The notes below the pieces were generated by a model that had not been told where the DNA came from, searched no databases, and saw only the letters and a list, made by a program, of their open reading frames with translations. Of a stretch of DNA of 64,000 nucleotides, positions 23,760 to 29,478 are shown in pieces (positions within the stretch are counted from its first letter, which is position 1; each line of letters begins with the position of its first letter). The DNA is from Escherichia coli (GTDB lineage Bacteria > Pseudomonadota > Gammaproteobacteria > Enterobacterales > Enterobacteriaceae), in NCBI RefSeq assembly GCF_003334335.1, contig NZ_QOWQ01000017.1; one strand, given 5' to 3'. The position numbers and the translations under genes are program-made.

Positions 23760-23961
23760 CGTGGATTCCTCAAAGCGTAAACAACGTATAACGGCGTATG
23801 ATCTTATAAGCGGGACAGGCTGACAACTGTTAGTTTTTTAAAATTGATAATCTAACAAGGATTATGGGGATGATTGATGAAAAAAAAAGCGGCAGAGAAG
23901 ATCTCCACCGCTTGTCATTGTTGGATGCGACGCTCAAGCGTCGCATCAGGCATAAAGCAGA

Positions 23962-25908
23962 TTACTTTTTGATTTCATACAGCGGTGTTTGACCCGCCAC
24001 AACATGGCCCTGAGCTTTAATGATCAAGCCACTGAAATCGTCGATATTGCTGCAAACCACCGGGCTAATCATCGAGCGGGCGTTAGCGTTCAGGTAATCC
24101 AGATCCATTTCCAGAATCGGTTGCCCTGCGCTTACCTGCGCACCCTCTTCCACCAGACGTTTAAAGCCTTTACCTTCCAGCGCTACGGTGTCGATACCCA
24201 TATGGACGACGATCTCCGCGCCTTTTTCGGTTTCCAGGCAGAACGCGTGGTTGGTGTTGAAGATTTTCACGATTGTCCCTGCGGCTGGTGATACGACGAT
24301 TTTATCTGTCGGTTTCACCGCCACACCGTCACCCACCGCTTTGCTGGCGAATGCTTCGTCAGGAACCTGATCCAGTGCCACGACATCACCGGTAATCGGC
24401 GATACCAGCTCCGCGATAGATACCGCGTTTGGTACAGCCTGCGGTTTTGCTACAGGCGCGGCAGTTGCCGGAGTTGCTTCAGCTGACGCAGCGGCTACCG
24501 GACCACGGGCAACGACTTTCTTCATCGCATCGCCGATGGATTCTGCTTTCGCGCCAACAATCACCTGAATAGTCTGTTTGTTCAGTTTCACTACCCCAGA
24601 AGCACCCAGACGTTTACACATCGTATCGTTAACGCGGGCAGAGTCAGCCACTGTAAGGCGCAGACGGGTGATACAGGCGTCAATCGCTTTCAGGTTGTCA
24701 GTGCCGCCAACCGCAGCAATATAGTTGGTTGCCAGTTGAGTCAGACCTTCTTCAGTGTTGCTGTTGGCTTCTTCAGTAACGATCTCGTCTTCTTTATCTT
24801 CACGACCCGGCGTTTTCAGGTTGAACATGCGGATAACCAAACTGAACACCACGAAGTAGATAGCGAAGAAGATAACGCCCATCACCAGCAGCATCCAGAC
24901 GTTCTGGCTGGCGGCCGGCAGGTTATACATCAACGCGTAGTCGATAGCCCCCGCAGAGAAAGAGAAGCCCGCGTGGATACCCAGCAGCGTTGCCACAAAC
25001 AGGCTGATACCGGTCAGCAGTGCGTGCAGGAGGTACAGCAGCGGAGCAAGGAACATGAACAGGAATTCCAGCGGCTCAGTCACACCGGTCAGGAACGCAG
25101 TAACAGCAACAGAAAGCAGCATACCGCCAACCATCGGACGACGCTCTTTCGGTGCTGCGAAGTACATCGCCAGCGCCGCACCCGGCAGACCGAACATCAT
25201 GATCGGGAAGAAGCCGGACATGAACATCCCCGCGGTGCCGTCACCGGCATAGAAGCGGTTAATGTCACCGTGGAAAACCGTACCCGCCGCGTTGGTGAAT
25301 TCACCAATCTGGAACCAGGCGATGGTGTTCAGTACCTGATGCAGACCGGTTGGGATCAGCAGACGGTTGATGAAACCAAAGATACCGGAACCCAGCGCGC
25401 CCGCAGAAACGATCCACTCGCCGCCTGCATGGATAGCGTGCTGTACCGGCGGCCAGACGTAACCAAAAATGGCCGCCAGCACCAGGCAGAAGAATCCGGT
25501 GGCAATCGGCACAAAGCGTTTGCCGCCGAAGAAGCTCAGGAAGTCCGGCAGTTTAATATCGGACCAACGGTTATAGGCTGCGCCACCAACCAGACCGGTA
25601 ATGATACCCGCCAGTACACCCATGTTAATTTCTGGGTTGATGGTCACCATCGCTTTGGTTAACACAAAGTAACCTACCGCACCCGCCAGCGCCGCCGCAC
25701 CAGCGCTGTCTTTCGACCAGCTGGATGCCACACCGATGGCGAAGATTAATGCGAGGTTATCAAAAATCGCACCGCCCGCCTGGGCAATAAACGCAACGTT
25801 AAGTAAATCTGGCTGACCGAATCGCAGCAACAGTGCCGCCACCGGCAGCACCGCGATAGGGAGCTGTAACGCCCTACCGAGTCGCTGGAAAAAACCTAAA
25901 ATATTCAT
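23962..25908 (-). CDS. nagE: PTS N-acetylglucosamine-specific EIICBA
   Basis: 648 aa MNILGFFQRLGRALQLPIAV... Confidence 0.95.
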   Translation of the reverse strand: MNILGFFQRLGRALQLPIAVLPVAALLLRFGQPDLLNVAFIAQAGGAIFDNLALIFAIGVASSWSKDSAGAAALAGAVGYFVLTKAMVTINPEINMGVLAGIITGLVGGAAYNRWSDIKLPDFLSFFGGKRFVPIATGFFCLVLAAIFGYVWPPVQHAIHAGGEWIVSAGALGSGIFGFINRLLIPTGLHQVLNTIAWFQIGEFTNAAGTVFHGDINRFYAGDGTAGMFMSGFFPIMMFGLPGAALAMYFAAPKERRPMVGGMLLSVAVTAFLTGVTEPLEFLFMFLAPLLYLLHALLTGISLFVATLLGIHAGFSFSAGAIDYALMYNLPAASQNVWMLLVMGVIFFAIYFVVFSLVIRMFNLKTPGREDKEDEIVTEEANSNTEEGLTQLATNYIAAVGGTDNLKAIDACITRLRLTVADSARVNDTMCKRLGASGVVKLNKQTIQVIVGAKAESIGDAMKKVVARGPVAAASAEATPATAAPVAKPQAVPNAVSIAELVSPITGDVVALDQVPDEAFASKAVGDGVAVKPTDKIVVSPAAGTIVKIFNTNHAFCLETEKGAEIVVHMGIDTVALEGKGFKRLVEEGAQVSAGQPILEMDLDYLNANARSMISPVVCSNIDDFSGLIIKAQGHVVAGQTPLYEIKK

Positions 25909-26032
25909 CTTATTCCCCCTACGAGAACCCTATTTGGCTCGTTTCAAGCCGTATTTTTATTTTGCTGCAAATTGTACTGCCGATGTTCTGTAATCAGATT
26001 GTTAGATCATCTGCTACAGAGTGTGTGAAAAT

Positions 26033-26053
26033 TTAATTCGTATCGCAAATTAA
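26033..26053. promoter_or_regulatory. NagC operator-like palindrome (nagE-proximal)
   Basis: ttaattcgtatcgcaaattaa. Confidence 0.55.
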
Positions 26054-26065
26054 ACGCGTGTCTTT

Positions 26066-26081
26066 TGTGAGTTTTGTCACC
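26066..26081. promoter_or_regulatory. CRP site in the nagE-nagB divergent region
   Basis: tgtgagttttgtcacc matches TGTGA-N6-TCACA. Confidence 0.6.
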
Positions 26082-26125
26082 AAATATCGTTATCATCACT
26101 CCCTTTTACTGGCTAAACCAGAAAA

Positions 26126-26150
26126 CTTATTTTATCATTCAAAAAATCAG
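26126..26150. promoter_or_regulatory. Second NagC operator-like element (nagB-proximal)
   Basis: cttattttatcattcaaaaaatcag, about 95 bp from the first box. Confidence 0.4.
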
Positions 26151-26240
26151 GTCGGATTGACGCCTGTCTGCGCAAATCCAGGTTACGCTTAAAGATGCCT
26201 AATCCGCCAACGGCTTACATTTTACTTATTGAGGTGAATA

Positions 26241-28249
<2,009 letters not shown>

Positions 28250-28257
28250 GAGAAAGT

Positions 28258-29478
28258 ATGACACCAGGCGGACAAGCTCAGATAGGTAATGTTGATCTCG
28301 TAAAACAGCTTAACAGCGCGGCGGTTTATCGCCTGATTGACCAGTACGGGCCAATCTCGCGGATTCAGATTGCCGAGCAAAGCCAGCTTGCCCCCGCCAG
28401 CGTAACCAAAATTACGCGTCAGCTTATCGAACGCGGGCTGATCAAAGAAGTTGATCAGCAGGCCTCCACCGGGGGCCGCCGCGCTATCTCCATCGTCACC
28501 GAAACCCGCAATTTCCACGCAATCGGCGTACGGCTTGGTCGTCATGACGCCACCATCACTCTGTTTGATCTCAGCAGCAAAGTGCTGGCAGAAGAACATT
28601 ACCCGCTGCCGGAACGTACCCAGCAAACGCTGGAACATGCCCTGTTGAATGCCATTGCTCAGTTTATTGATAGCTACCAGCGCAAACTGCGCGAGCTGAT
28701 CGCGATTTCGGTGATCCTGCCAGGGCTTGTTGACCCGGACAGCGGCAAAATTCATTACATGCCGCATATTCAGGTAGAAAACTGGGGGCTGGTAGAAGCT
28801 CTGGAAGAACGTTTTAAAGTGACCTGTTTCGTTGGTCACGATATCCGTAGTCTGGCGCTGGCGGAGCACTACTTCGGTGCAAGTCAGGATTGCGAAGACT
28901 CCATTCTGGTGCGTGTCCATCGCGGAACCGGGGCCGGGATTATCTCTAACGGGCGCATTTTTATTGGCCGCAACGGCAACGTCGGTGAAATTGGCCATAT
29001 TCAGGTCGAACCGCTGGGTGAACGCTGCCACTGCGGCAACTTTGGCTGCCTGGAAACTATCGCTGCCAACGCTGCCATTGAACAACGGGTGTTGAATCTG
29101 TTAAAGCAGGGCTACCAGAGCCGCGTGCCGCTGGACGACTGCACCATCAAAACTATCTGCAAAGCCGCGAACAAAGGCGATAGTCTGGCGTCGGAAGTAA
29201 TTGAGTATGTCGGTCGTCATCTGGGTAAAACCATCGCCATTGCTATCAACTTATTTAATCCGCAAAAAATTGTTATTGCCGGTGAAATCACCGAAGCCGA
29301 TAAAGTGCTGCTCCCTGCTATTGAAAGCTGCATTAATACCCAGGCGCTGAAGGCGTTTCGCACTAATCTGCCGGTGGTACGTTCTGAGCTGGATCACCGC
29401 TCGGCAATCGGCGCTTTTGCGCTGGTAAAACGCGCCATGCTCAACGGTATTTTGCTCCAGCATTTGCTGGAAAATTAA
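28258..29478 (+). CDS. nagC: ROK-family transcriptional repressor NagC
   Basis: 406 aa with N-terminal HTH and ROK domain. Confidence 0.95.
   Translation: MTPGGQAQIGNVDLVKQLNSAAVYRLIDQYGPISRIQIAEQSQLAPASVTKITRQLIERGLIKEVDQQASTGGRRAISIVTETRNFHAIGVRLGRHDATITLFDLSSKVLAEEHYPLPERTQQTLEHALLNAIAQFIDSYQRKLRELIAISVILPGLVDPDSGKIHYMPHIQVENWGLVEALEERFKVTCFVGHDIRSLALAEHYFGASQDCEDSILVRVHRGTGAGIISNGRIFIGRNGNVGEIGHIQVEPLGERCHCGNFGCLETIAANAAIEQRVLNLLKQGYQSRVPLDDCTIKTICKAANKGDSLASEVIEYVGRHLGKTIAIAINLFNPQKIVIAGEITEADKVLLPAIESCINTQALKAFRTNLPVVRSELDHRSAIGAFALVKRAMLNGILLQHLLEN

What the first reader, a model, noticed from the sequence alone, without database searches (positions are those of the whole stretch)
25909..26240. 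nagE-nagB divergent control region with two NagC-type operators and a CRP site
Two AT-rich operator-like elements (26033-26053 and 26126-26150) lie about 95 bp apart centre to centre, with a near-consensus CRP site (26066-26081) close to the first. This geometry fits repression by DNA looping between the divergent promoters. It is ordinary but cleanly readable.
Basis: partly seen in the sequence, partly recalled or inferred. Interest (0 to 1): 0.25.

Follow-up and report, generated by a model that had tools for sequence, protein, structure and literature searches.

The report
Known E. coli nagE-nagB control region
This is the textbook E. coli switch between the N-acetylglucosamine uptake gene nagE and the nagBACD breakdown genes: two NagC repressor sites 94 bp apart with one CRP activator site between them. 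It is real and cleanly readable, and it is already fully described.

Summary

- **Identity:** Window 25909-26240 is exactly the 332-bp nagE(-)/nagB(+) intergenic region. It is 100% identical to many E. coli chromosomes.
- **Operators:** Both AT-rich elements are the published 23-bp NagC operators. The nagE operator lies at 26032-26054 (centre 26043). The nagB operator lies at 26126-26148 (centre 26137), not 26126-26150. The centres are therefore 94 bp apart, not 95.
- **Matrix scan:** A matrix built from eight other published NagC sites ranks the two operators 2nd and 3rd of 63,978 positions.
- **CRP site:** The core TGTGAgttttgTCACc sits at 26066-26081, as stated. Published transcription starts (nagE 26012, nagB 26146) place its centre at -61.5 and -72.5. 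Both are class I activation positions.
- **Promoter overlap:** The nagE operator covers the nagE -35 hexamer. The nagB operator covers the nagB -10 hexamer.
- **Conservation:** In 57 of 59 gammaproteobacterial species with a divergent nagE, the operator spacing is 94 or 93 bp. The nagE operator-to-CRP distance is 30.5 bp in 55 of those 57.

Literature held here states that the weak nagE operator depends on cooperative DNA looping with the strong nagB operator. The feature is already known, so interest is low.

The parts
23962..25908 (-). nagE coding sequence (PTS N-acetylglucosamine transporter IIABC, 648 aa)
   Evidence: ORF. Annotation of an identical E. coli region. NCBIfam NF007608 scores 1448.6 bits against a cut-off of 1010.
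25909..26240 (.). nagE-nagB divergent intergenic control region (332 bp, 38.6% G+C)
   Evidence: It is 100% identical to many E. coli chromosomes and present in 5425 of 5426 complete E. coli genomes.
26012..26012 (-). nagE transcription start, giving a 104-nt leader
   Evidence: Cappable-seq TSS at U00096.2 703063 (+). The mapping K-12 coordinate = 729075 - window position is verified by the FITBAR site coordinates and by the TSS-flanking sequence.
26020..26025 (-). Inferred nagE -10 hexamer CACACT (-13 to -8)
   Evidence: Inferred from the TSS and the sequence. It is a poor match to consensus, as expected for a CRP-dependent promoter. Yersinia has TACACT one base away.
26043..26048 (-). Inferred nagE -35 hexamer TTGCGA (-36 to -31), inside BoxE
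   Evidence: Sequence plus TSS. These columns (CGCAA) are near-invariant across 48 loci.
26032..26054 (-). NagC operator of nagE (BoxE), centre 26043, at -31 relative to the nagE start. This is the weak NagC/Mlc hybrid site, with A/T base pairs at ±11.
   Evidence: Exact match to the published site TTTAATTTGCGATACGAATTAAA. Scores 19.4 bits, rank 2. TT/AA at ±5,6. Its weak, loop-dependent character is described.
26063..26084 (.). CRP (CAP) site. Core TGTGAgttttgTCACc at 26066-26081, centre 26073.5, which is -61.5 for nagE and -72.5 for nagB.
   Evidence: Core match. TSSs. Cross-species consensus ttttGTGAt...t.TCACcaaa with a free N6 spacer. nagB and nagE are listed as SELEX-confirmed CRP targets.
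26110..26115 (+). Inferred nagB -35 hexamer TGGCTA (-36 to -31)
   Evidence: It lies 17 bp upstream of TATCAT. The conserved block cTgGC.a appears across 48 loci.
26133..26138 (+). Inferred nagB -10 hexamer TATCAT (-13 to -8), inside BoxB
   Evidence: Sequence. TSS at 26146. The conserved pattern TAt.aT appears across 48 loci.
26126..26148 (+). NagC operator of nagB (BoxB), centre 26137, covering -20 to +3 of nagB. This is the strong site, with C at -11 and +11.
   Evidence: Exact match to the published site CTTATTTTATCATTCAAAAAATC. Scores 14.4 bits, rank 3. The ±11 and ±5,6 positions were checked.
26146..26146 (+). nagB main transcription start, giving a 95-nt leader
   Evidence: Kim et al. 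2012 TSS table: NC_000913 702929 (-), with flanking sequence ...TTATCATTCAAAAAA that ends at window 26146.
26241..27041 (+). nagB coding sequence (glucosamine-6-phosphate deaminase), first gene of nagBACD
   Evidence: NCBIfam NF001685 scores 625.7 bits against a cut-off of 513.
28258..29478 (+). nagC, the ROK-family repressor that binds both operators. It is encoded in the operon it controls.
   Evidence: NCBIfam NF047937 (NagC equivalog) scores 719.2 bits against a cut-off of 650.

Best explanation
This is the E. coli nagE-nagBACD divergent control region.

**Repression.** Without GlcNAc-6-phosphate, NagC (encoded downstream at 28258-29478) binds the strong nagB operator at 26126-26148, which covers the nagB -10 hexamer and transcription start. 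Through cooperative protein-protein contact it also binds the weak nagE operator at 26032-26054, which covers the nagE -35 hexamer. The 94 bp between the centres (about nine helical turns) loops out, and both promoters are shut.

**Activation.** A single cAMP-CRP dimer binds inside the loop at 26066-26081. Its centre is at -61.5 from the nagE start (26012) and -72.5 from the nagB start (26146). It therefore activates both weak promoters from class I positions once NagC is released by the inducer.

**What is shown and what is inferred.**
- Shown here: the identity of the sites, their scores, their positions relative to mapped transcription starts, and the conservation of the geometry.
- Taken from the literature: NagC and CRP binding, loop dependence, and the inducer.
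- Inferred: the promoter hexamers, and the idea that the phased A/T tracts in the loop help bending.
For: - **Identity of the region.** It is 100% identical to E. coli chromosomes and flanked by annotated nagE and nagBACD.
- **Identity of the operators.** Both are letter-for-letter the curated NagC sites.
- **Independent matrix.** A matrix built without these two sites ranks them 2nd and 3rd in 64 kb. None of 5000 intergenic shuffles reproduce both scores.
- **Defining positions.** TT/AA at ±5,6 is present in both boxes. BoxB has C/C at ±11 and BoxE has A/T base pairs there, as published.
- **Transcription starts.** Experimental TSSs place CRP at -61.5 and -72.5 and put the operators over the nagE -35 and the nagB -10.
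- **Comparative data.** Of 59 species with a divergent nagE, 57 keep 94 bp (48) or 93 bp (9) between the boxes. The BoxE-to-CRP distance is 30.5 bp in 55 of those 57. TT/AA is invariant at both boxes in all 57. BoxE has A/T at ±11 in 57 of 57, and BoxB has C at -11 in 55 of 57. Meanwhile the intergenic length ranges from 253 to 500 bp.
- **Loop interior.** AA/TT dinucleotides show a 10-10.5-bp periodicity. Power is 1.54 against 0.19 in shuffles, reached by 0.05% of shuffles.
Against: Nothing contradicts this explanation. There are four limits.
- Looping itself cannot be tested computationally. The primary footprinting and looping papers (Plumbridge & Kolb 1991, 1993, 1995, 1998; Plumbridge 2001) are not held, so their details rest on secondary statements and on my recollection.
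- The fixed 94-bp spacing is over-determined. Each operator is locked to a promoter, and each promoter is locked to the shared CRP site. Conserved spacing therefore does not by itself prove looping.
- The BoxB score alone is not significant window-wide, because 52 of 100 shuffled windows have an equal hit.
- The simple sigma-70 scan found neither true promoter.
Confidence: 0.95

Rival explanations
1. The two NagC sites act independently, each by simple promoter occlusion, with no loop. On this view the invariant 94-bp spacing only reflects that both promoters must sit at class I distances (-61.5 and -72.5) from one shared CRP site.
For: Each operator overlaps a core promoter element, and CRP sits at canonical class I positions for both promoters. 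That geometry alone would fix the operator spacing, and conservation analysis cannot separate the two constraints.
Against: - Held literature states that the single wild-type nagE operator is not regulated by NagC without the nagB operator, and that looping is required.
- BoxE keeps the weak A/T ±11 configuration in 57 of 57 species. That fits a site meant to depend on a partner.
- Class I geometry would tolerate jumps of 10-11 bp, yet none are seen. The one exception, Moritella, has 32 bp (about 3 turns) inserted between BoxE and CRP, so the operators are still close to in phase (126 bp apart).
- The loop interior has phased A/T tracts.
Confidence: 0.04
2. The nagE box (26032-26054) is mainly an Mlc operator rather than a NagC operator, so nagE belongs to the glucose (Mlc) regulon.
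For: The box has A/T base pairs at ±11, the hallmark of Mlc sites. [quoted passage not shown]
Against: [quoted passage not shown] It also states that there is no cross-regulation at physiological protein levels. The box is locked at 94 bp from a C/C-type NagC operator in 57 of 59 species.
Confidence: 0.01

Closest known systems
E. coli K-12 nagE-nagBACD regulatory region (Plumbridge & Kolb 1991, 1993, 1995, 1998; Plumbridge 2001)
   Same: It is the same locus. The operator 23-mers are identical, the K-12 coordinates match, and the CRP site and flanking genes are the same.
   Different: Nothing differs. The window sequence is 100% identical to many sequenced E. coli strains.
lac operon O1-O3 loop with its CAP site (general knowledge)
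   Same: A short loop of about 92-94 bp forms between a strong primary operator over the promoter or start and a weak auxiliary operator. A CRP site lies inside the loop.
   Different: - lac uses a LacI tetramer, whereas nag uses the ROK-family NagC.
- lac controls one promoter, whereas the nag loop closes two divergent promoters.
- In nag each operator is a primary occluder for its own promoter.
Other two-site NagC targets: glmUS, chbBCARFG, fimB, chiP
   Same: They share the 23-bp operator type with TT/AA at ±5,6, and they need two sites and cooperative binding. The chiP proximal site is in this same window at 21627-21649.
   Different: Their spacings are longer or different, and some are activating (glmU, fimB). 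Only nagE-B has the compact 94-bp BoxE-CRP-BoxB module.
Mlc operators (ptsG, manX, malT, mlc)
   Same: The sequence logo is nearly indistinguishable. BoxE shares the Mlc-type A/T at ±11.
   Different: Specificity is set by the linker or wing reading ±11. BoxB has the NagC-type C/G there, and the locus is controlled by NagC in vivo.

Membership tests
NagC (ROK-family) operator | 23-bp quasi-palindrome with invariant TT at -6,-5 and AA at +5,+6 | tested here: met
   Both boxes have TT/AA at these positions. It is invariant in 57 of 57 orthologous loci at both boxes. The feature is defined.
NagC (ROK-family) operator | C or G at ±11 (high-affinity NagC sites; A/T marks Mlc sites) | tested here: met
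   BoxB has C at -11 and C at +11, so the feature is met. BoxE has T and A, so it is not met. This is exactly what is published for the wild-type nagE operator, which is weak and loop-dependent.
NagC (ROK-family) operator | Identity to an experimentally defined operator | tested here: met
   Exact 23 of 23 matches to the nagB and nagE entries of the curated list in FITBAR Table 1. The K-12 coordinates are also concordant.
NagC (ROK-family) operator | Scores with a matrix built from independent NagC sites | tested here: met
   BoxE scores 19.4 bits and BoxB 14.4 bits, ranks 2 and 3 of 63,978. Per-position frequencies in shuffles are 1.6e-7 and 1.1e-5. BoxB alone is not significant window-wide.
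NagC (ROK-family) operator | Physical binding by NagC, released by GlcNAc-6-P | not testable with these tools
   Literature only. The nagE-nagB region is used as a positive control for NagC EMSA and footprinting. The primary papers are not held.
NagC (ROK-family) operator | Cognate regulator encoded in the genome | tested here: met
   nagC at 28258-29478 matches NCBIfam NF047937 at 719 bits, above the 650 cut-off.
CRP class I activator site | TGTGA-N6-TCACA core with G4 and C13 | tested here: met
   TGTGAGTTTTGTCACC matches at 9 of 10 positions, with G4 and C13 present. The core is conserved and the N6 spacer is free in 48 loci.
CRP class I activator site | Centre near -61.5, -72.5, -82.5 or -92.5 from the transcription start | tested here: met
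   The centre at 26073.5 is -61.5 from the nagE TSS at 26012. It is -72.5 from the nagB TSS at 26146.
CRP class I activator site | CRP binding and cAMP-dependent expression | not testable with these tools
   nagB and nagE are listed as known CRP targets recovered by genomic SELEX. The expression data are in papers that are not held.
Repression by DNA looping between two operators | Two operators separated by an integral number of helical turns | tested here: met
   94 bp equals 9.0 turns at 10.4-10.5 bp per turn. The spacing is 94 or 93 bp in 57 of 59 species, and the one clear variant is 126 bp, i.e. 94 + 32.
Repression by DNA looping between two operators | Loss of one operator, or a half-turn insertion, derepresses both promoters | not testable with these tools
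   Stated in secondary sources and in the title of Plumbridge & Kolb 1993. It cannot be computed.

The most novel reading that the evidence does not exclude
The 117-bp BoxE-CRP-BoxB cassette may be a rigid unit held under selection as a whole across Enterobacterales, Aeromonadales and Vibrionales. That selection would include keeping the nagE operator weak (A/T at ±11 in 57 of 57 species), so that nagE repression stays loop-dependent. The cassette also survives replacement of the adjacent nagE IIC domain by a form only about 38% identical, where similarity to the K-12 form is lost just outside BoxE. Parts of this may already be recorded in regulon databases that I could not consult.
Probability: 0.4. 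Interest if true: 0.25.

Novelty: already known. Interest (0 to 1): 0.08.

Why it matters
It matters little as a discovery. This is one of the classic bacterial DNA-looping systems, and the window sequence is identical to sequenced E. coli.

Its value is as a calibration case. A reader working from raw sequence placed the gene boundaries and the CRP core exactly and the operators to within 2 bp. The check also shows that a position-weight matrix ranks the biologically weak operator above the strong one, because affinity depends on the \u00b111 positions. 'No significant matrix score' would therefore have been an unsafe refutation criterion.

The comparative data add a modest point. The geometry (94 bp and 30.5 bp) is essentially invariant over a very wide phylogenetic range.

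Tried and rejected
- **Simple sigma-70 scan.** It found one promoter-like site, CTTACA-17-AATAAT at 26214-26242, which is no more than chance (1.1 expected). It found neither real promoter. It was rejected as uninformative for weak, activator-dependent promoters.
- **Third NagC-like matrix hit.** The hit at 26221-26243 (12.2 bits) lies 95 bp from BoxB and overlaps the nagB ribosome-binding site. It is not conserved: the median score at that place in 57 species is 2.6 bits, and only 2 loci reach 10. It is also reached by 6% of intergenic shuffles. It was rejected as chance.
- **Second CRP site.** A source says multiple CRP sites exist here. The only other match of at least 7 of 10 is 26032-26047, inside BoxE, which is not convincing.
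- **Alternative nagB promoter.** A published prediction table assigns TTTACT-17-TATTTT. This puts the -10 hexamer 13 nt from the mapped start, and its -35 hexamer is not conserved. I prefer TGGCTA-17-TATCAT. The same table's nagE assignment, GTGACA-19-TTTAAT, is incompatible with the TSS at 26012.
- **Rfam scan of 25700-26450.** It returned only a sub-threshold snoRNA match (E = 0.53), which is chance.
- **Primary papers.** Seven look-ups failed. The supplement of PMC4288165 is not held.
- **First nagE-synteny filter.** It wrongly discarded most loci because their nagE N-terminus is only about 38% identical to the K-12 form. The analysis was redone.

Full report
**1. What is at the coordinates**

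The window carries a 648-aa ORF on the - strand ending its 5' side at 25908. A 266-aa ORF on the + strand starts at 26241. ORFs of 382, 406 and 250 aa follow it.

The 332-bp stretch 25909-26240 is 100% identical to many E. coli chromosomes and is present in 5425 of 5426 complete E. coli genomes. In an identical strain the neighbours are annotated chiQ, chiP, glnS and nagE on one side. On the other side they are nagB, nagA, nagC, nagD and asnB. NCBIfam equivalog models for NagE, NagB and NagC are matched above their curated cut-offs.

**2. The two operator-like elements**

A curated list of ten NagC operators compiled from El Qaidi & Plumbridge 2008 and from J. Plumbridge is printed in FITBAR Table 1 (PMC3098098).
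- Its nagB entry, CTTATTTTATCATTCAAAAAATC, is window 26126-26148 on the + strand.
- Its nagE entry, TTTAATTTGCGATACGAATTAAA, is window 26032-26054 on the - strand.

The K-12 positions printed in that paper (702949 and 703043) agree with the mapping K-12 = 729075 - window position.

The centres are 26043 and 26137, which is 94 bp apart. The 95-bp register scores 1.9 bits, against 14.4 bits for the published register.

**3. Is it more than chance?**

I built a symmetric matrix from the eight published sites other than nagB and nagE.
- In the 64-kb window the top three hits are the chiP (ybfM) proximal operator (a training site, 24.2 bits), BoxE (the nagE operator, 19.4 bits) and BoxB (the nagB operator, 14.4 bits). 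The next hit scores 12.5 bits.
- In 100 dinucleotide shuffles of the window, the per-position frequencies are 1 in 6.4 million for the BoxE score and 73 in 6.4 million for the BoxB score.
- 52 of 100 shuffled windows contain some hit as good as BoxB. BoxB is therefore not significant window-wide on score alone.
- In 5000 shuffles of the AT-rich intergenic region, 2% reach 14.4 bits, 0.06% reach 19.4 bits, and none have both.

The criterion was also fragile. The matrix ranks the biologically weak nagE box above the strong nagB box, and FITBAR's own genome scan lists the nagB box only 21st. According to Bréchemier-Baey et al. 2015 (PMC4288165), the only invariant positions are TT at -6,-5 and AA at +5,+6. 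High-affinity NagC sites have C/G at ±11, whereas Mlc sites have A/T there. Both boxes have the TT/AA. BoxB has C and C at ±11, and BoxE has T and A. [quoted passage not shown] It adds that a single wild-type nagE operator is not regulated by NagC.

**4. The CRP site and the promoters**

TGTGAGTTTTGTCACC occupies exactly 26066-26081 and matches the consensus at 9 of 10 positions. Window-wide, such cores are no more frequent than chance, with 2 found against 2.04 expected. The evidence therefore comes from position and conservation.

Published 5'-end maps give the following starts:
- a nagE start at U00096.2 703063 (+), which is window 26012 (Cappable-seq supplement);
- nagB starts at NC_000913 702929 (-), which is window 26146, and 702878 (-), which is window 26197. 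These come with flanking sequence that verifies the mapping (Kim et al. 2012 supplement).

The CRP centre at 26073.5 is thus at -61.5 for nagE and -72.5 for nagB. Both are canonical class I positions (general knowledge of CRP activation). The two main starts are 134 bp apart.

BoxE spans -42 to -20 of nagE and covers an inferred -35 hexamer, TTGCGA. BoxB spans -20 to +3 of nagB and covers an inferred -10 hexamer, TATCAT. nagB and nagE are listed among the known CRP targets recovered by genomic SELEX.

**5. Comparative test**

A search of one genome per species with NagB returned 80 loci from Enterobacterales, Aeromonadales, Vibrionales and a Pasteurellaceae member. Fifty-nine have a divergent PTS IIC gene within 700 bp.

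Scanning each intergenic region with the same independent matrix gave these results:
- The two best non-overlapping sites are 94 bp apart in 48 loci and 93 bp apart in 9.
- The best CRP core is 30.5 bp from the BoxE centre in 55 of these 57 loci.
- TT/AA at ±5,6 is invariant at both boxes in all 57.
- BoxE has A or T at both ±11 positions in 57 of 57.
- BoxB has C at -11 in 55 of 57.
- Meanwhile the intergenic length ranges from 253 to 500 bp, and the BoxB-to-ATG distance from 64 to 270 bp.

Stacking 48 loci on the BoxE centre shows four conserved blocks separated by free sequence. They are BoxE, ttttGTGAt...t.TCACcaaa, cTgGC.a (the inferred nagB -35) and aAAaCTTATTTTAt.aTtcaAAAaAtca.

The one clear exception, Moritella, has 126 bp between the boxes. 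The extra 32 bp (about three turns) lie between BoxE and CRP.

Within the loop, AA/TT dinucleotides recur every 10-10.5 bp. Power is 1.54 against 0.19 for shuffles, and 0.05% of shuffles reach it. The phase is similar across species. This fits my recollection that the region is intrinsically bent around the CAP site (Plumbridge & Kolb 1998, not held). However, the species are related and the conserved blocks contribute, so it is supportive only.

**6. Mechanism**

The best-supported reading is the published one.
- NagC bound at BoxB and BoxE interacts across a loop of nine helical turns and occludes the nagB -10 and start and the nagE -35.
- GlcNAc-6-P releases NagC (for the inducer statement).
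- cAMP-CRP, bound inside the loop, then activates both weak promoters.

The secondary literature held here states directly that two sites and looping are required.

The main caveat is that the invariant spacing is over-determined. Each operator is tied to a promoter, and each promoter is tied to the shared CRP site. Conservation cannot by itself discriminate looping from independent occlusion. The conserved weakness of BoxE and the published single-operator result argue for looping.

**7. Comparison with what is known, novelty and verdict**

This is not merely similar to the K-12 nagE-B control region. It is that region. The closest analogue elsewhere is the lac O1-O3 loop with its internal CAP site.

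Novelty is 'already known', and interest is low. Two corrections apply: the spacing is 94 bp, not 95, and the two operators are unequal in strength.

Noticed in passing
L003:169-2184 (-), compared with window 23962-25908; also loci L004-L078: The gene divergent from nagB comes in two forms.
- The K-12 type is found in, for example, E. albertii, Citrobacter, Enterobacter cloacae, Kluyvera, Rahnella bruchi and Budvicia.
- A second type is only about 38% identical over the first 120 aa. It is found in, for example, Enterobacter asburiae, Pantoea, Yersinia, Serratia and Aeromonas.

Sister species differ in type. In L003, which is labelled E. coli, the protein is a mosaic. Its C-terminal IIA end reads almost the same as K-12 NagE, overall identity is 58.6%, and the intergenic DNA diverges from the window just left of BoxE. 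Both types pass the GlcNAc-specific IIBC model TIGR01998. This looks like xenologous replacement of the IIC domain at a fixed locus.
   Followed up: partly
window 26183-26192 (GTTACGCTTA) and the 5' end at 26197: A second nagB 5' end is mapped at 26197. It lies 7-8 nt after a -10-like TACGCT at 26184-26189. With up to 1 mismatch, the decamer GTTACGCTTA is present in 25 of 57 species. It sits at a nearly fixed 43-51 bp from BoxB, whatever the distance to the ATG, which ranges from 59 to 221 bp. This may be a second nagB promoter downstream of the operator, or a processing signal.
   Followed up: partly
window 21627-21649 (-); also 21802-21824 and 21832-21854: The published chiP (ybfM) proximal NagC operator GATAATTCGCGTCGCGAAAAATA lies upstream of chiP in this same window. 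Two weaker matrix hits (10.1 and 11.7 bits) lie 175 and 205 bp further upstream and are candidates for a distal partner site.
   Followed up: no
window 25935-25951 (+), then TATTTTTATT: A terminator-like hairpin lies inside the nagE leader region. On the nagE mRNA strand it is a stem-loop, CGGCTTGAAACGAGCCA, about 60 nt after the start at 26012. The region is not conserved in the type-2 nagE loci.
   Followed up: no
window 25991 (-): The Cappable-seq table lists a weaker second nagE-strand start at U00096.2 703084, 21 nt downstream of the main one.
   Followed up: no
L041, L042, L045, L048, L053, L072 and other Vibrio loci, about 51 bp upstream of nagB: Where nagB has no divergent nagE (many Vibrio species), it keeps a single strong NagC-type box, CTTATTTTATAATGCGAATTAAT, centred about 51 bp before the ATG. 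There is no CRP core, and the second-best site lies at variable distances of 134-167 bp.
   Followed up: no
window about 23870-23992 (+): RefSeq annotates a 40-aa hypothetical protein (WP_001297734.1) between glnS and nagE. It overlaps the 3' end of nagE on the opposite strand.
   Followed up: no
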